Positions 4,548 to 64,000 of a DNA stretch of 64,000 nt are shown here, in pieces. The position numbers were made by a program, and so were the translations under genes. Location: positions 24,084 to 88,083 of IMG/VR virus record IMGVR_UViG_3300037483_000352. The stretch is one strand, 5' to 3'. This DNA is from a virus (Duplodnaviria > Caudoviricetes). The notes under the pieces were generated by a model. The model had not been told where the DNA came from. It saw only the letters and a list, made by a program, of their open reading frames with translations, and made no database searches. Numbering within the stretch: position 1 is the first letter of the stretch; every line of letters begins with the position of its first letter.

Positions 4548-4855
4548 GCGGAGTGAATGGAACCATGCCTGACACCCTGCACCCGGCGGATGCCGAGTAC
4601 TTCCGGACCCTGGCCCGGAACGCCGATCCCCTGTACGGGATGATCAACCTCGTCCGGTTCCAGGACAGGCTGATCGTCACCATGGCCCCCACCGTGGGGC
4701 TGATCAACCCGGAGATCCTTTTCCATGACCGGGTCCGGGGTGTCCGGGTCCACGGAGACCTGATCGAACTGTGCGACCAGGTGACCTACCGGATCACCGG
4801 GTGGGACCCCGACCAGAAGTCACTGATCGTTCTACTGGAGGCTGATCACCGATGA
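4544..4855 (+). CDS. Hypothetical protein
   Basis: ATGA-coupled ORF, 103 aa. Confidence 0.55.
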   Translation: MSGVNGTMPDTLHPADAEYFRTLARNADPLYGMINLVRFQDRLIVTMAPTVGLINPEILFHDRVRGVRVHGDLIELCDQVTYRITGWDPDQKSLIVLLEADHR

Positions 4856-5277
4856 CCGATGACCGGAAGGTGATCGTCCCCACGTCGGTCGACTCACCGA
4901 CACAGAAGATCCACCTGACCGCTTCCGATCTTGCCCGGCTGAACCAGGTGCCGGACGGGATGATGCCGGGCGCCCGGCCGGTCGTGATCAACGTGGTCCA
5001 GCAAGATCCCCCGGCCGACCGTCAGTACCGGGGTGACGATCTTCTTCGGAGGTTCGTCCCCTACTTCGTGATCACCATGATGGGTCTGGTGATCGTCGGT
5101 GGCCTCGCGGCGATCCTGGGTCTGGTGGTCCCGGTGATCATGGCGGGCATCCTGTCGATCGTCGCGTCATTCGTGTCGATCATCATGAGCCTCGTTCTGT
5201 CGATCATCGCCGGGGTCGTGATCGCGCTCGGCATCGCGTACTGCCAGACGGTCAACATCAAGAACAAGGGCCGATGA
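4852..5277 (+). CDS. Membrane protein (Spd-like)
   Basis: ATGA-coupled; long hydrophobic C-terminal half. Confidence 0.6.
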   Translation: MTDDRKVIVPTSVDSPTQKIHLTASDLARLNQVPDGMMPGARPVVINVVQQDPPADRQYRGDDLLRRFVPYFVITMMGLVIVGGLAAILGLVVPVIMAGILSIVASFVSIIMSLVLSIIAGVVIALGIAYCQTVNIKNKGR

Positions 5278-5393
5278 GCGCCAGGCACCGGCGACCGAAC
5301 AAGATCAGGGCCGCAGTGAAGGGGATGATCCTCTTGGCTGCGGCCCTGTTTTTGATCTTGGCTCCGGCCTGGACTCTGATGTCCATGCGCTGA
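5274..5393 (+). CDS. Small membrane peptide, 39 aa
   Basis: ATGA overlap; basic N-terminus plus TM segment. Confidence 0.45.
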   Translation: MSARHRRPNKIRAAVKGMILLAAALFLILAPAWTLMSMR

Positions 5394-6434
5394 GCCATGC
5401 ATAATTTCCCGGCCGAAGATCAATGTCCGTTTTTCCCGTATCGTGAAAACCAATGTTCGTGATCACGCCCCTGGCCTGCGGAAATCCCTAACCCAAAGTG
5501 GGTGGTACGCGGGTACCAGGAAGGGGGTCCAGGCCCGCAGACGGGCGTACAGAGCTTTTAAGTACCACTGTTTGTACCGCGCTTCCCCAGCATAACTACT
5601 CACCCCCGTGCATAAGTTGTTGGAGAACGCCATTTCCGCATGGTGGAAATGCCGGCTTTCCGATCTACGAAAACGCCATTCTCCACGTGCCGGGAAACGG
5701 TCCGGCCGGTCCCCTTGCTCCCGCGCTCATGTCCCCGGGAGCGCGGGTGAGTTGACCCCTCCAGAAAACTTTCTAAAGAATCTTGACGAAACCTATTGCA
5801 TCCCCCGAACGGGGGGCGCACATTGGAGACACAACAAAACAACGGGTGATCGGCCCCGAAGATCCAAAATCGGACGTCGCACAGGCCACCAGGCCTCGTG
5901 ATCACCCGGAGCCCCCGGACGGCGGGGGCGGGCCTTCGCACCGGGCCCCGGAAGTTCATCAGGTGGAGACGGCCTTACCGAAGGGCCCCAAAAAATCTTC
6001 GTAGATCCAAAGGGAACGGACCGGGTACCCCGGACGGTCGCGATCATCACCCCCGCTCACGCGGACCGGCGATCACGGCACATGGGTGATACGGAAACCC
6101 ACTACCGGCGGAACGACAGCTCAAGGATCGCTAGGAGTTGATCCGGTGGTGACCATGCGACCCGGTACCTCGTGCCGGATGGACACCCAGGGGAACAACC
6201 CGGAACGATCAAGGCGGGCATGATCTGGTGGTAGGTCCCATCGGGTGTCCGCAACATGGCACGGAGGCGATAGACACCGGCACTGGAAGCCGGGACCGAG
6301 AGGCGCCTAGCGGGTTCGGATCCCGCCCCTGCCACTGATCACCGGTTGCCAGGAACGATGGGTCACGAACCCGGGAAACAAACAGGCACGGTGTGATCAA
6401 CCACTAATCATCCGGTCAACCCGAGGAGCCGATC
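5394..6434. promoter_or_regulatory. ~1 kb non-coding control region with AT-richer patches and many hairpins; candidate rightward promoter TTGCAT(5796)-17-CACATT(5819)
   Basis: No credible ORF; lies between the tra operon and the early genes. Confidence 0.5.
5461..5560 (+). repeat. Dispersed ~100 bp element, copy 1
   Basis: Blocks CCTGCGGAAATCCCTAAC, GGGTACC and AGACGGGCGTACAGAGC are shared with the copies at 26.4, 43.9 and 61.3 kb. Confidence 0.85.
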
Positions 6435-17927: not shown

Positions 17928-18204
17928 TCACGTACTGGACAAGGTCCGGCTGATCACCCACCACCCACAGATGTCCGGGTCCATGATGGTCCGGACGGGA
18001 TACCACAACTCAACAGATCCGAGATGATCGCCATGAACGGCGAGATCCGATCGACAGCAGTAACCGCGTCGTGCATACCGGCCGTCGAACTGGCCCACTA
18101 CCTGGACCCGTACGACTACGACGGCGGCCCGTTCCAGTGTCTGGCCCCGGGGCGTCCCCGGACCGTAGCGGAGACCACCCGTGATGCGGGCCCTGTGCCC
18201 GTCT

Positions 18205-61366: not shown

Positions 61367-61464
61367 GGATCTCCTACGCGCCGGTAAGTTGCACTCTGGG
61401 CAACATCTTTTCACCGCGAGTCACCGCATAAAGGACCGGCCGGGCGCATAGGTCCGGGCATGAC

Positions 61465-61510
61465 GAAGCCCCCTTCTCCTGCCGTCGCAGGTGATCAGAA
61501 GGGGGCTCCG
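61465..61510 (-). terminator. Hairpin downstream of the Ro60 gene
   Basis: AGCCCCCTTCT...AGAAGGGGGCT. Confidence 0.55.
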
Positions 61511-61566
61511 CTCCTGACGAACCCTTCCCGTCGCACGCGTCGGGGGAGAGTTTCAGGTTCTGAGGA

Positions 61567-63207
61567 TCACGACTGCCAAGGCCACTTCGCCGACCGGCCG
61601 CCGTCCAGCAGGCCGACCATGGTGAACAGCTTGTCACTGAATCCGCCGACCTCGTACCGGTTGCGCTGCGAGGTGTCCAGCGGAGAGGCCTGGTACCCGG
61701 ATGTGTCGATCGAGAACAGCGGCACACTCTCGGGGATCACGTTGCCCAGTGTGGACCAGCCGGACACGAAACGTCCGTACTGGCCGTCGTGGCAGATGAT
61801 CACCCGGTCGTGTCCCCTGTAGGTGGCCTGGAGAGCCGCCACGGTGTTGGTGCCGTGGCCGACCTTGCCAACGCACCGGTCGAACGACTCCATGTCCCGG
61901 AGCACAGAACCACCCAGCGTCAGCTGGAACCGGAACGCGTCATCGGCGAACCCGACCACGTCCACCGAACCCAGGGACCGGTGAGCGAACGTCAGGCCGA
62001 CCAGGGCCGCCACGTCCACGTGCCGGACCATGGACTTCGCGGACACGGGGTCGCGCATGGATCCTGACGTGTCGACCATCACCAGGGTCCGGCCGGTGAA
62101 CTCCGGGACGTTCGCCATGGAGTAACGCAGGGCCACCTCAAGGGCGTGACCCCACCGCAGCGAGGGCGCCGCCTTGTACGCGGACAGGAACCGGTAGGGG
62201 AACTGCCTGGACTTCGCGATCTGCTCGGGGTCCATCAGCCGGGATGTCACGAGCTGCGCAGCCTTGTCCGAGACCCCGGCCTCGTCGAAGTTCCGGAGGT
62301 TGCGGATCAATGCCATGATCCCCATGTTAGGGATCATGGCCTCCCACACCTTGCGCTTGTCGGCCGACACGTTGCCGGACAGCGACACCGCGTCCTCCCA
62401 CGTCATGCCCGCCGCGCGCAGCCGGTCCGGGTCGTACAGCCACTCAGGGTGGCGGTCAACATCGGCACGCAATGCGCGGTTCGCGAGCACCACCGCCAGG
62501 GACTCCGGGACCTGCTCCGGGTGACCCGGGCCGGACAGACGGGGACGCCGGTGCAGCGCGTAGGTGAACAGGTCGGCCTGCTCCGGGCTGTTCGGCTTGG
62601 GGTGCACGAACTCCTGGACGTCACCGAAGCGCATGCCACGGGACGCGGTGTCGTACTTCAGCAGCGAGTGCTGGTGGTACAGGCGCCGGACCGCGTCAGC
62701 CACACCACGCTTGACCGGCATGGGGAGGTTCCGTCCGTAGTGCGCGACCCAGTACGCGAGGAACTCACCCGGCTCGTCGGGGCGCTGGAGTACCGCGTCG
62801 ATGAACGCGCGCGGGCCGGTGAGCCGCTTCGCGGAGTGGTCCGGGAGGTCGGCTTCGAAGGGATCGAGTCCGCCCGCCAGTCGTGCCCGGGTGCCGACCG
62901 CAGCGGCCACCAGGGAAGCGCTGCGCATGTTGGCCTCGCCACGGAGCCAGCGCAGGAAGTCCAGGAAGTCAGCGGGCTGGCTGACGGCCGCCGTCTGGCA
63001 CAGATCGGCGAAGCGGCTGTCGCGGCCATCGGCCGACTCGTAGAACGTGTCCTCGCCGACCATGTTGACCACGGCGAGGAGGACCAGTTCGGACAGCGAG
63101 TCACGGACCCAGGCCCGGCCGCCCTCGTGGGTGACGGTCTCGGCAACGGTGGTCGCCGGGTGAGACACAGCCGGGCGTACGCCGAGCCGGTTGAACTTCG
63201 CGCACAT
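61567..63207 (-). CDS. rsr: Ro60 ortholog (TROVE plus vWA domains)
   Basis: DTFYE, RGEANMR, LQRPDE, ALIRNLRNF, SRQFPYRF..AY; MIDAS DTSGSM. Confidence 0.92.
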   Translation of the reverse strand: MCAKFNRLGVRPAVSHPATTVAETVTHEGGRAWVRDSLSELVLLAVVNMVGEDTFYESADGRDSRFADLCQTAAVSQPADFLDFLRWLRGEANMRSASLVAAAVGTRARLAGGLDPFEADLPDHSAKRLTGPRAFIDAVLQRPDEPGEFLAYWVAHYGRNLPMPVKRGVADAVRRLYHQHSLLKYDTASRGMRFGDVQEFVHPKPNSPEQADLFTYALHRRPRLSGPGHPEQVPESLAVVLANRALRADVDRHPEWLYDPDRLRAAGMTWEDAVSLSGNVSADKRKVWEAMIPNMGIMALIRNLRNFDEAGVSDKAAQLVTSRLMDPEQIAKSRQFPYRFLSAYKAAPSLRWGHALEVALRYSMANVPEFTGRTLVMVDTSGSMRDPVSAKSMVRHVDVAALVGLTFAHRSLGSVDVVGFADDAFRFQLTLGGSVLRDMESFDRCVGKVGHGTNTVAALQATYRGHDRVIICHDGQYGRFVSGWSTLGNVIPESVPLFSIDTSGYQASPLDTSQRNRYEVGGFSDKLFTMVGLLDGGRSAKWPWQS

Positions 63208-63261
63208 AGATGTGGCCTCTCGTGATTCGGGGGGATGATCACGAGAGGCCGGTCAAGCTGT

Positions 63262-63382
63262 GGTGTCCGAGGTCGCCGTTGGACGTGGGGCGCGCCGCCT
63301 GCGGCGCTACCGGGACCCGGAGGTCCCGGATGGAATCGAACCATTACTCAGGAAGTAACCCGCGTCTGTCGCAGCGGACACC
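63262..63382 (-). ncRNA. yrlA: YrlA-type Y RNA with a circularly permuted tRNA-like domain
   Basis: Terminal stem GGTGTCCG/CGGACACC; T-arm ATGG-TTCGATT-CCAT, closed acceptor stem CCGGGACC-TCCG-GGTCCCGG, then a TA-GCGC..GG..GCGC D-arm; adjacent to Ro60. Confidence 0.8.
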
Positions 63383-63394
63383 GCTGCATGAGGT

Positions 63395-63475
63395 GGCCTC
63401 CCGAGATCACTTGGTGCCGGTCGGATTTGGATCCTTGGAAGGGAAGTATCCGGTTGGCTTCGCAGCGGGAGGTGC
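63395..63475 (-). ncRNA. Short Y-RNA-like gene C
   Basis: Terminal stem plus the shared UGCGA, UACUUC and GUGAUCU elements. Confidence 0.65.
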
Positions 63476-63500
63476 CGATATTGAGTTGTGGTGGTCGTGC

Positions 63501-63580
63501 TGTGTAGCCAGAGATCACTAGTTGGCGGTCGGGATCTTTCGATGCGGTGAAGTACCCGGTTGCCCTCGCAGCTAGCCACA
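63501..63580 (-). ncRNA. Short Y-RNA-like gene B
   Basis: Same architecture; variable domain contains AUC-GAAA-GAU. Confidence 0.65.
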
Positions 63581-63608
63581 AGATCTTGAGTTGTCGGACA
63601 GACAGCGA

Positions 63609-63675
63609 GCCCGAGATCACTAGTTGGCGGTCGGCGTTTCACCAATTGAAGTAGCCGGTTGCCTTCGCATCGGGC
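63609..63675 (-). ncRNA. Short Y-RNA-like gene A
   Basis: Terminal stem GCCCGA/UCGGGC; same conserved elements. Confidence 0.65.
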
Positions 63676-63698
63676 CCGTGTTCTGTTGTCCTGCGTCC

Positions 63699-63727
63699 AT
63701 CCTACGTGATCGTTCTGGGTACGCGAA
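63699..63727 (-). promoter_or_regulatory. Candidate promoter for the Y RNA-Ro60 operon, TTCGCG-17-TAGGAT
   Basis: The -10 matches Streptomyces TAGRRT; the -35 is weak. Confidence 0.45.
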
Positions 63728-64000
63728 ACGGATCATCACAGATCTTTACTGGTGGTGGACCGGAACCCGGGCGGGTGACCGCTACGCGGTTATGCAAGAT
63801 CAATGTATGGATATTTATGATCTATCCAGATATGCATGATCATGCATGACGGCCGCGTAAGGATCTTGCATAACGGTTCATGCGTAACCCCATTCAGAAA
63901 CGATGATCGTTGATCATGCCTCTGACCTGCGGTTTTGCGGCCGACCTAAGATCTTTTATGCGTTCGATCCGTATGGATCTTAGGGGGTTATCACACCCAT

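What the first reader, a model, noticed from the sequence alone, without database searches (positions are those of the whole stretch)
61567..63675. Phage Ro60 with a tandem array of four Y-like RNAs, only one of them tRNA-mimicking
Seen: four self-closing units upstream of the TROVE gene on the - strand (63609-63675, 63501-63580, 63395-63475, 63262-63382). All share terminal stem, UGCGA(A/G/C), interrupted stem, UACUUC, a variable module, CCAA(C/G) and G(U/C)GA(U/C)CU. The last unit has a permuted T-arm/acceptor/D-arm domain. Two spacers share ACAACTCAA(G/T)ATC, and ACAACTCAA recurs at 18005. Established: Ro60 binds the bulged stem of Y RNAs, YrlA RNAs mimic tRNA, and Y RNAs can tether Ro to PNPase; some actinophages encode Ro plus a Y RNA. 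Inference: a modular set of RNA adaptors or decoys with one Ro-binding end and four different effector loops, possibly countering host RNA-targeting defences.
Basis: partly seen in the sequence, partly recalled or inferred. Interest (0 to 1): 0.85.

Follow-up and report, generated by a model that had tools for sequence, protein, structure and literature searches.

The report
Phage Ro60 gene with four Y RNAs
An uncultured actinomycete phage carries a gene for the ring-shaped RNA-binding protein Ro60, preceded by four small structured RNAs that share one handle; this layout is a larger version of the Ro60/Y-RNA pairing already known in mycobacteria and is common in actinobacteria and their phages.

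Summary
On the minus strand, directly upstream of a 546-aa TROVE + vWA (Ro60) gene, lie four self-closing units. Each has a 7-9 bp closing stem, UGCGA, an interrupted inner stem, UACUUC, a variable module and GA(U/C)CU. Three are about 70-78 nt. The fourth (121 nt) carries a T arm, an acceptor-like hairpin and a D-like arm in the permuted order of YrlA.

Two covariance models built here give 305 matches beside Ro60 in 143 phage and actinobacterial loci, all on the Ro60 strand, with strong compensatory change. In 41 genomes of one actinobacterial family, matches occur only in genomes that have TROVE (12 of 15 against 0 of 26).

Arrays of 2-5 units are the rule and follow a conserved order. Cultured phages (GiJojo, BRock, Quantum, VanLee) have them unannotated, or partly called as tRNAs.

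The units are best read as actinobacterial YrlA/YrlB-type Y RNAs made from one precursor (Chen et al. 2014). Rfam's YrlA model does not reach them.

The modular-adaptor reading is supported by sequence. Ro60 binding and any anti-defence role are untested.

I class this as a new member of a known kind, of moderate interest. Earlier notes of this scan report similar RNA arrays beside Ro60-like genes on other DNA.

The parts
63699..63704 (-). Putative -10 hexamer TAGGAT of the array promoter, about 21 nt upstream of U1
   Evidence: Read from the sequence. The block ACGTAnnATGGACG-CAG is conserved with the closest relative L001, which has TACTAT here. The sigma-70 consensus scan found no promoter, so this is inference only.
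63607..63677 (-). U1, a short Y-like unit of 71 nt with a 7-bp closing stem
   Evidence: R1 gives 69.8 bits, but U1 is a training sequence. Fold. Similar UACUUC..GGUGAAA modules occur in L009, L026, L012 and L031.
63582..63594 (-). Spacer motif ACAACUCAAGAUC between U1 and U2, a candidate processing site
   Evidence: An ACAAC/CAACU motif is present in 36 of 56 phage spacers and 28 of 60 chromosomal spacers. It is absent upstream of tRNAs.
63503..63580 (-). U2, a short Y-like unit of 78 nt with a 9-bp closing stem that includes two G-U pairs
   Evidence: R1 gives 61.7 bits, but U2 is a training sequence. Its likely ortholog is L001:575-645.
63477..63489 (-). Spacer motif ACAACUCAAUAUC between U2 and U3
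63397..63472 (-). U3, a short Y-like unit of 76 nt with closing stem CCUCCCG/CGGGAGG
   Evidence: R1 gives 69.8 bits, but U3 is a training sequence. The same closing arm class marks the penultimate unit in 63 of 92 arrays.
63262..63382 (-). U4, a YrlA-type unit of 121 nt: handle, small hairpin, T arm (AUGGUUCGAUUCCAU), 8-bp acceptor-like hairpin and a D-like arm (GUAGCGCC..GG..GCGC)
   Evidence: R2 was built without this unit or its L001 ortholog. It scores U4 at 47.0 bits, E 9e-10, full length. The fold has z = -3.4. ARAGORN mis-calls a tRNA-Thr at 63319-63408 across its T arm.
63214..63250 (-). Strong hairpin (about -25 kcal/mol) between U4 and the Ro60 start. Its 3' arm holds the likely ribosome-binding site GAGAGG (63216-63221), 8 nt before the ATG.
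   Evidence: Comparable hairpins, often followed by a U-rich tail and containing GGAGG, precede Ro60 in L001, L002, L007-L011, L014, L068-L071 and L115.
61567..63207 (-). Ro60 ortholog, 546 aa (TROVE ring plus vWA domain with MIDAS DTSGS)
   Evidence: Pfam TROVE E 4.9e-20 and VWA_2 below its cut-off. PDB 9KOP, phage phiLo Ro60, E 1.7e-23. Translation. It is 38-43% identical to annotated 'Ro-like RNA binding protein' genes of Streptomyces, Gordonia and Arthrobacter phages.
61463..61511 (-). Terminator-like hairpin with a 15-bp stem, downstream of the Ro60 stop codon
   Evidence: RNAfold. It has no U tail, so this reading is inference.

Best explanation
This is a phage copy of the actinobacterial Ro60 (Rsr) locus, with four Y RNAs of the YrlA/YrlB lineage encoded head to tail just upstream of the protein gene.

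Most likely sequence of events:
1. One transcript starts about 15-20 nt before U1 and runs through U1-U4 (inferred).
2. Endonucleolytic cuts in the short spacers release RNAs of about 70-120 nt, each protected by its closing stem. Two of the three spacers carry the conserved ACAACU motif (inferred).
3. Ro60 binds the constant handle. The handle is the closing stem plus the nearly invariant 5' (G)NUGCG(A/C) and 3' (U)GA(U/C)CU strands, which form a bulged helix (inferred by analogy with all studied Y RNAs).
4. The variable part then decides what the particle touches. U4 offers a tRNA-like T/acceptor/D domain, which host tRNA enzymes recognise in published YrlA RNAs. U1-U3 offer only small pyrimidine/A-rich hairpins. 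They may simply gate the Ro60 ring, or tether it to a nuclease such as host PNPase (inferred).
5. A strong hairpin that buries the ribosome-binding site sits between U4 and the Ro60 start. It probably lets RNA output exceed protein output (inferred).

The purpose during infection is not known. It is probably remodelling of host structured-RNA decay or RNA quality control.

What is shown here: the RNA family, its structure, its conserved order in the array and its strict linkage to Ro60.
For: Structure and family:
- Model R1 (short units) gives 145 matches in 63 phage Ro60 loci and 160 in 80 chromosomal loci. All 305 are on the Ro60 strand, and nearly all lie within about 1 kb upstream of Ro60.
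- On 142 distinct units, 87.9% of cells pair against 63.5% in shuffles. There are 498 double-change cells against 140, and slid controls give 38-53%.
- The inner stem was not used to pick units. It pairs better with its own partner than with other units' partners in 93 of 96 units (p 1e-16).
- U4 scores 47 bits, E 9e-10, against R2, which was built without it.

Linkage to Ro60:
- In 41 genomes of one family, R1 matches occur in 12 of 15 TROVE-positive genomes and 0 of 26 TROVE-negative genomes (Fisher 6e-8). Nineteen of 20 matches lie within about 2 kb of the TROVE gene.
- In three whole 8-9 Mb genomes the only matches are at the Ro60 locus.

Link to known Y RNAs:
- Same-handle tRNA-like units of Streptosporangium score 41 and 39.5 bits (E 1e-7) with Rfam YrlA RF02553.
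- M. smegmatis YrlA and YrlB probe sequences in PMC4201824 show the same ACUUC-hairpin and ACUUC-T-arm layouts.
- That paper shows Rsr binding, a shared precursor upstream of rsr, and RNase P and CCA processing for the M. smegmatis RNAs.
- Phage phiLo Ro60 binds two upstream Yrl RNAs and host PNPase in vitro (PMC12135203).

Array grammar: short unit first, CCUCCCG-type unit penultimate, T-loop unit next to Ro60. The window obeys it.
Against: - There are no expression, processing or binding data for this phage or any close relative.
- Rfam YrlA (RF02553) and Rfam Y_RNA give no match to any of the four units, even at E <= 10.
- The published YrlA motif GNCGAAN0-1G is met only approximately: UGCGAAG in U1 and U3, UGCGAG in U2, UGCGAC in U4.
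- The D-like arm of U4 can also fold as a plain 6-bp hairpin.
- Single folds of U1-U3 are not more stable than shuffles (z -0.7 to -1.1).
- No promoter reached the sigma-70 consensus scan.
- The alignments used for pair counts were fitted to the model, and the closing stem was part of my first regex filter.
Confidence: 0.8

Rival explanations
1. The units are not free RNAs. They are a structured 5' leader of the Ro60 mRNA: repeated Ro60-binding sites through which the protein regulates its own mRNA stability or translation.
For: The units lie on the same strand immediately upstream of Ro60, with 15-32 nt spacers and no internal terminator. A hairpin buries the ribosome-binding site just before the start codon.
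Against: In L033, L036, L038 and L053 the arrays lie downstream of Ro60, where they cannot act as a leader. The M. smegmatis counterparts accumulate as discrete Rsr-bound RNAs cut from a precursor (PMC4201824). A conserved spacer motif suggests cleavage between units. The two roles are not exclusive.
Confidence: 0.1
2. The units are decayed or rearranged tRNA genes, remnants of a phage tRNA cluster with no function of their own.
For: ARAGORN calls a tRNA across U4. Public annotation calls tRNA-Arg inside the equivalent units of GiJojo and VanLee. In GiJojo and BRock, Ro60 sits inside a tRNA cluster.
Against: U1-U3 have no tRNA feature. Rfam's tRNA model does not match any unit. The handle is conserved with compensatory change across hundreds of units and is found only beside Ro60. 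The T/acceptor/D order is permuted in the same way as in YrlA.
Confidence: 0.03
3. The repeats act at the DNA level near the genome end, for example as protein-binding sites for packaging, replication or recombination.
For: The locus lies within 400 nt of the end of the virus record, and the L001 contig ends at the same homologous position. The flanking 323 nt are unusually GATC-rich and AT-rich.
Against: All 305 matches keep the orientation of Ro60. Pairing is kept through G-U pairs and compensatory changes, which matter only in RNA. The same arrays occur in the middle of bacterial chromosomes and in the middle of other phage genomes.
Confidence: 0.02
4. One reading: the RNAs are true Ro60 partners whose main job is to act as decoys or adaptors against host RNA-targeting defences, such as tRNA nucleases or CRISPR types III and VI.
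For: There is no direct evidence here. U4 mimics a tRNA. The authors of PMC12135203 suggest that phage phiLo Ro60 and its Yrl RNAs hijack host PNPase to escape defence.
Against: The same ordered arrays occur beside chromosomal Ro60 genes in many actinobacteria, so the design predates phage use. The record holds no RtcB ligase and no CCA-adding enzyme, and the neighbouring genes have no RNA-repair domains.
Confidence: 0.15

Closest known systems
Mycobacterium smegmatis Rsr with YrlA and YrlB (Chen et al. 2014, RNA 20:1715, PMC4201824)
   Same: Both are Ro60 orthologs preceded on the same strand by more than one Y RNA made from a single precursor. One RNA has a permuted T arm, acceptor stem and D arm. 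Both share an ACUUC element after the inner stem, judged from the published probe sequences. Both hosts are actinobacterial.
   Different: The window has four units instead of two. Three minimal units of about 70 nt have no T arm, whereas M. smegmatis YrlB has one. The D arm of U4 is degenerate. Nothing has been tested experimentally here.
Salmonella YrlA/YrlB and Rfam family RF02553 (YrlA)
   Same: Both have a Ro60-adjacent tRNA-mimic RNA with the order T arm, acceptor hairpin, D arm, enclosed by a handle. Same-handle units of Streptosporangium score 39-41 bits with RF02553.
   Different: RF02553 has a gathering score of 69 bits. It matches none of the window's units, and no actinobacterial or phage unit reaches threshold. 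The handle sequence differs: (G)NUGCG(A/C) here against GGCGAAUG. There is no rtcBA repair operon.
Thermus phage phiLo Ro60 with Yrl1 and Yrl2 (NAR 2025, PMC12135203; PDB 9KOP, 9L5Y)
   Same: Both are phage-encoded Ro60 genes with several Y-like RNAs upstream that contain a CGAA-type motif. phiLo Ro60 is the closest solved structure (E 1.7e-23).
   Different: phiLo has two RNAs, not four. The host phylum is different. phiLo binding to Ro60 and PNPase was shown in vitro, and nothing was shown here.
Metazoan Y RNAs (hY1, hY3-5; Xenopus Y3) and Deinococcus Yrn1/Yrn2
   Same: In both, the 5' and 3' ends pair into a stem that carries a conserved bulged helix, and a variable loop or module follows. 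There are several paralogous RNAs per genome. From my memory of hY1 (GGUCCGAAGG ... UUGACU), the phage handle (GGUGCGAAGG ... UUGAUCU) resembles both strands of that helix. This was not verified with a tool.
   Different: Rfam Y_RNA does not match. The bulge position differs. The metazoan genes are separate Pol III units, not a polycistronic array.
RNA arrays beside Ro60-like DUF2828 genes noted earlier in this scan (for example e1-5790182, e1-5679549)
   Same: Both show tandem small RNAs with one constant handle and different tRNA-like inserts next to a Ro60-fold protein in phages.
   Different: Those notes concern very divergent Ro60-like proteins and a different handle. Here the protein is a plain TROVE Ro60 and the handle is of YrlA type. 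I did not re-test those notes.

Membership tests
Ro60 / Rsr protein (TROVE + vWA) | TROVE (HEAT-repeat ring) domain | tested here: met
   Pfam PF05731 E 4.9e-20, 72.6 bits against a cut-off of 23. Two aligned stretches cover residues 9-538 against phiLo Ro60, 9KOP.
Ro60 / Rsr protein (TROVE + vWA) | C-terminal vWA domain with a MIDAS motif (DxSxS) | tested here: met
   The sequence VMVDTSGSM is present. Pfam VWA_2 scores 20.4 bits, below its cut-off of 27. This region aligns to the vWA domain of 9KOP.
Y RNA (functional class) | 5' and 3' ends pair into a closing stem that is kept by compensatory change | tested here: met
   The closing helix is 96% paired, and 6 of its 7 pairs show double changes across 142 units. 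The four window units have four different complementary stems.
Y RNA (functional class) | Conserved Ro60-binding helix with a bulge next to the closing stem | tested here: inconclusive
   UGCG on the 5' strand and GA(U/C)CU on the 3' strand are invariant. RNAalifold pairs C-G and G-U across them, leaving unpaired bases. The likeness to the metazoan site rests on memory, and Rfam Y_RNA gives no match.
Y RNA (functional class) | Encoded next to Ro60 on the same strand | tested here: met
   All 305 matches lie on the Ro60 strand. In whole genomes, matches occur only in TROVE-positive genomes, and 19 of 20 lie within about 2 kb of the gene.
Y RNA (functional class) | Physically bound by Ro60 and stabilised by it | not testable with these tools
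   This needs co-immunoprecipitation or a gel-shift assay.
YrlA (Rfam RF02553; Chen et al. 2014) | Score at or above the Rfam gathering threshold of 69 bits | tested here: not met
   No RF02553 match to U4 even at E <= 10. Related units in L115 reach only 39-41 bits. The Rfam model evidently does not cover the actinobacterial branch.
YrlA (Rfam RF02553; Chen et al. 2014) | tRNA-like domain in the order T arm, acceptor-like stem-loop, D arm, enclosed by the Ro60-binding stem | tested here: met
   The R2 alignment of U4 places AUGGUUCGAUUCCAU on the T arm, CCGGGACC-UCCG-GGUCCCGG on the acceptor hairpin and GUAGCGCC..GG..GCGC on the D arm. The D arm is weak.
YrlA (Rfam RF02553; Chen et al. 2014) | GNCGAAN0-1G motif in the 5' strand | tested here: inconclusive
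   U1 and U3 have UGCGAAG, U2 has UGCGAG and U4 has UGCGAC. The first G of the motif is U here. Most relatives have GGUGCGCAG.
tRNA | Cloverleaf in normal order, recognised by tRNA models | tested here: not met
   Rfam tRNA matches only the three true tRNAs of the window. The ARAGORN call at 63319-63408 spans the U3-U4 spacer and the U4 T arm.

The most novel reading that the evidence does not exclude
Actinobacteria and their phages may share an ordered 'Y RNA operon': short handle-only RNAs first, a CCUCCCG-stem unit next to last, and a YrlA-type tRNA mimic beside Ro60, cut apart at a dedicated ACAACU spacer signal. In this reading each position is a distinct adaptor for Ro60, and the ~70-nt minimal units are a Y RNA class not yet described. 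Phages would have captured the whole operon to redirect host RNA decay during infection.
Probability: 0.3. Interest if true: 0.6.

Novelty: new member of a known kind. Interest (0 to 1): 0.42.

Why it matters
Ro60/Y-RNA particles are found from bacteria to humans, yet what bacterial and phage Y RNAs do is still largely unknown. This locus adds little as a single case. The comparison built around it adds more.

- Multi-unit Y RNA arrays with a fixed order and a shared handle are the norm beside actinobacterial and actinophage Ro60 genes.
- Rfam's YrlA model misses them.
- Some are annotated as tRNAs in public phage genomes (GiJojo gene 29, VanLee tRNA-Arg).
- Cultured, genetically tractable phages (GiJojo, BRock, Quantum, VanLee) carry the same arrays. 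The role of each unit, and of the ~70-nt minimal units, could therefore be tested directly.

Tried and rejected
- Rfam scans of the window, of the array alone and of U3 alone found no Y_RNA or YrlA match. Scans of 40 related loci at gathering threshold found only tRNAs.
- Megablast of the locus against the phage collection found nothing.
- RNAalifold on a plain MAFFT alignment of 38 short units recovered only the closing stem, because the 3' inner arm was misaligned. I replaced this with a duplex-energy test and a hand-given structure on a cleaner alignment.
- In the given structure, inner helix 3 is only 62-68% paired. Two geometries exist: a 3+4 bp stem with an AAC/ACC internal loop as in the window, or a continuous 8-bp stem. 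They are offset by one column.
- Model R1 does not detect U4, so I built a second model.
- The reviews by Sim and Wolin 2018, Boccitto and Wolin 2019 and Sim et al. 2020 are not in the held library, and the supplements of Chen et al. 2014 are not held. I therefore cannot exclude that arrays of three or more units are already listed there.
- Searches for third or fourth named bacterial Y RNAs found nothing relevant.
- No RtcB or CCA-adding enzyme is in the virus record. No informative Pfam domain is in the nine ORFs next to Ro60.
- The spacer motif is not shared with tRNA flanks.
- The third ACAACTCAA, at 18005, lies in a leader 24 nt before an ATG. I could not connect it to the array.
- Mycobacteriophage Ro60 genes were too distant to appear in the tblastn list. 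I therefore could not run my models on the published ET08 YrlA.
Full report
**What is in the window.**
The minus strand of 61567-63207 encodes a 546-aa protein. It matches Pfam TROVE (E 4.9e-20) and carries a vWA MIDAS motif, DTSGS. Its closest solved relative is the Ro60 of Thermus phage phiLo (9KOP, E 1.7e-23). It is 38-43% identical to genes annotated 'Ro-like RNA binding protein' in Streptomyces, Gordonia and Arthrobacter phages. The window is the right-hand 64 kb of an 88,083-bp IMG/VR virus record, so the locus lies within 400 nt of the record's end.

- U1, 63607-63677
- U2, 63503-63580
- U3, 63397-63472
- U4, 63262-63382

Each unit has the same parts in the same order: a 7-9 bp closing stem, one unpaired base, UGCGA, a short interrupted stem, UACUUC, a variable part, the other strand of the interrupted stem, CCAA(C/G), and G(U/C)GA(U/C)CU running into the closing stem. 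The closing stems have four different sequences, and all of them pair. Among U1-U3, one inner pair is C-G, G-C and A-U, and another flips from G-C to C-G. The pattern TGCG-N8-18-TACTTC occurs five times in the whole 88-kb record; four of these are the units.

**Is it more than chance?**
I fetched 63 phage contigs and 80 bacterial contigs that encode relatives of this Ro60. The three closest phage loci (57-69% Ro60 identity) carry the same kind of array, with 5, 4 and 3 units.

A covariance model of the short unit (R1) finds nothing else in the window above 14 bits. Elsewhere it gives:
- 145 matches in the phage loci;
- 160 matches in the chromosomal loci;
- all 305 on the Ro60 strand, and almost all within 1 kb upstream of the gene.

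Pair counts on the 142 distinct phage units:

| Measure | Observed | Control |
|---|---|---|
| Cells forming standard pairs | 87.9% | 63.5% (shuffles) |
| Cells changed on both sides | 498 | 140 (shuffles) |
| Pairing when partners are slid | – | 38-53% |

That alignment was fitted to the model, so I also ran a test that does not depend on it. The inner stem played no part in picking units. It pairs better with its own partner than with other units' partners in 93 of 96 units (p 1e-16).

In three whole actinobacterial genomes of 8-9 Mb, the only matches are at the Ro60 locus. In 41 genomes of one family, matches occur in 12 of 15 genomes with a TROVE gene and in 0 of 26 without one (Fisher 6e-8). 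Nineteen of the 20 matches lie within about 2 kb of that gene. The RNA family is real and travels with Ro60.

**The fourth unit.**
R1 does not recognise U4 as a whole. I therefore built a second model from 17 long units of other loci, leaving out U4 and its ortholog in L001. That model scores U4 at 47 bits (E 9e-10) over its full length. It aligns three elements:
- a T arm, AUGGUUCGAUUCCAU;
- an 8-bp acceptor-like hairpin;
- a D-like arm, GUAGCGCC..GG..GCGC.

This is the permuted order described for YrlA. The D arm is weak and could also fold as a plain hairpin. U1-U3 have no T-loop or D-arm motif.

ARAGORN's 'tRNA-Thr' at 63319-63408 is an artefact of the U4 T arm. The same artefact appears in public annotation. 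GiJojo gene 29 (tRNA-Arg cct) and VanLee tRNA-Arg (tct) lie inside units that score 49 and 107 bits with the long-unit model.

**Relation to published Y RNAs.**
Chen et al. 2014 (PMC4201824) reported the following:
- YrlA-like RNAs lie within 4 kb of Ro60, on the same strand, in 254 bacteria and 22 phages.
- In M. smegmatis, YrlA and YrlB lie upstream of rsr and are cut from one precursor.

Their probe sequences show that M. smegmatis YrlA contains UUACCACUUCUAAUGG and YrlB contains GCGACUUCAAGGUUCGA. These are the same ACUUC-hairpin and ACUUC-T-arm layouts I see in the units here.

Rfam holds a YrlA family (RF02553, gathering score 69 bits). It does not match the window, even at E <= 10, and it reaches threshold in none of 40 related loci. 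It does give 41 and 39.5 bits (E 1e-7) on two same-handle units of Streptosporangium. The units therefore belong to the YrlA/YrlB lineage, in a branch the Rfam model does not cover.

Phage phiLo has two Yrl RNAs upstream of its Ro60, and these bind Ro60 and host PNPase in vitro (PMC12135203). In the held library I found no paper that names a third or fourth bacterial Y RNA. The main reviews and the 2014 supplements are not held.

**What the comparison adds.**
- Arrays are the rule. By R1 alone, 43 of 56 phage loci have at least two units and 31 have at least three. Several Streptosporangiaceae chromosomes have four.
- Cultured phages carry them too: GiJojo, BRock and Quantum have three units and VanLee has four. 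None is annotated as an ncRNA.
- The order is conserved (see the table below). The window obeys all three rules.
- Spacers are short (median 18 nt). An ACAAC/CAACU motif is present in 36 of 56 phage spacers and 28 of 60 chromosomal spacers. The motif is not found upstream of tRNAs. I read it as a processing signal, but that is inference.
- Compared with L001, the window lacks one canonical YrlA-type unit between U1 and U2. This looks like gain or loss of a whole unit at the spacer motif.

Order of units in the 92 arrays with at least two upstream units:

| Position | Rule | Arrays that obey |
|---|---|---|
| First unit | Short (95 nt or less) | 73 |
| Penultimate unit | CCUCCCG-type closing arm | 63 |
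| Ro60-proximal unit | GUGCCCG-type closing arm | 62 |
| Ro60-proximal unit | Carries a T loop | 69 |

**Flanks.**
About 21 nt before U1 there is a TAGGAT hexamer inside a block conserved with L001. It may be the -10 element, but the consensus scan found no promoter.

Between U4 and the Ro60 ATG lies a hairpin of about -25 kcal/mol whose 3' arm contains the likely ribosome-binding site GAGAGG. Similar hairpins, often with a U-rich tail and GGAGG in the 3' arm, precede Ro60 in many phage and chromosomal loci. This would favour RNA output over protein output and is also inference.

A strong hairpin follows the Ro60 stop codon. No RtcB, CCA-adding enzyme or other RNA-repair gene was found in the record or beside Ro60.

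**Verdict.**
The idea of a modular set of RNAs with one constant Ro60 end is supported at the level of sequence, structure and genomic linkage. Binding, processing and any role against host defences remain untested. The presence of the same ordered arrays beside chromosomal Ro60 genes argues that the design is not a phage invention.

The locus is a new, larger member of the known Ro60/YrlA-YrlB kind. The most interesting residue is the conserved array order and the ~70-nt minimal units, which I could not find described.

Earlier notes of this scan report similar arrays beside more divergent Ro60-like proteins on other DNA. One of them gave me the Rfam accession, which I then tested.

Noticed in passing
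window 1-64000; 63678-64000: GATC occurs 720 times in the window (11.25 per kb), about 3.5 times the roughly 3.1 per kb I estimate from base composition. There are 12 copies in the 323 nt upstream of the array, where GC falls to 50% against 66% overall. This may relate to the cytosine-modification genes noted elsewhere in this genome.
   Followed up: partly
window 63980-64000 and L001:1-30: The virus record and the contig of its closest relative both end at the same homologous sequence, GATAACCCCCTAAGATCC. A 27-nt block, GTCAGAGGCATGATCAACGATCA, is conserved further in. This may be the true physical end of the genome.
   Followed up: partly
L153:1769-1843 (GiJojo gene 29) and L156:1626-1697 (VanLee tRNA-Arg); L002:2612-2687: tRNAs annotated or called by ARAGORN lie inside YrlA-type units that score 49-107 bits with my long-unit model. 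They are probably mis-called tRNAs.
   Followed up: partly
L039:2526-2667: One unit with the standard handle carries a tRNA-like insert in normal D arm, anticodon-like stem, T arm order instead of the permuted YrlA order.
   Followed up: no
L033, L036, L038, L053 (about 4800-6400): In these phage contigs the Y-like arrays lie downstream of Ro60 instead of upstream, still on the same strand.
   Followed up: no
G014:C13:178109-178181: An orphan short-unit match (62 bits) lies on a contig with no TROVE hit. The same genome also has a normal Ro60-linked unit.
   Followed up: no
window 18005-18013 (+): A third copy of ACAACTCAA lies in an intergenic leader 24 nt before an ATG at 18033. I found no Y-like unit nearby, and its meaning is unknown.
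   Followed up: partly
L001:646-810: The closest relative has about 165 nt of GC-rich, probably structured sequence without the handle between the orthologs of U2 and U3. The window has only a 32-nt spacer there.
   Followed up: no
window 63397-63403 and 63466-63472: The widespread penultimate-unit closing stem CCUCCCG/CGGGAGG pairs an anti-Shine-Dalgarno-like strand with a Shine-Dalgarno-like strand, and is followed by CCA in the window, L002 and L063. This may be coincidence.
   Followed up: no
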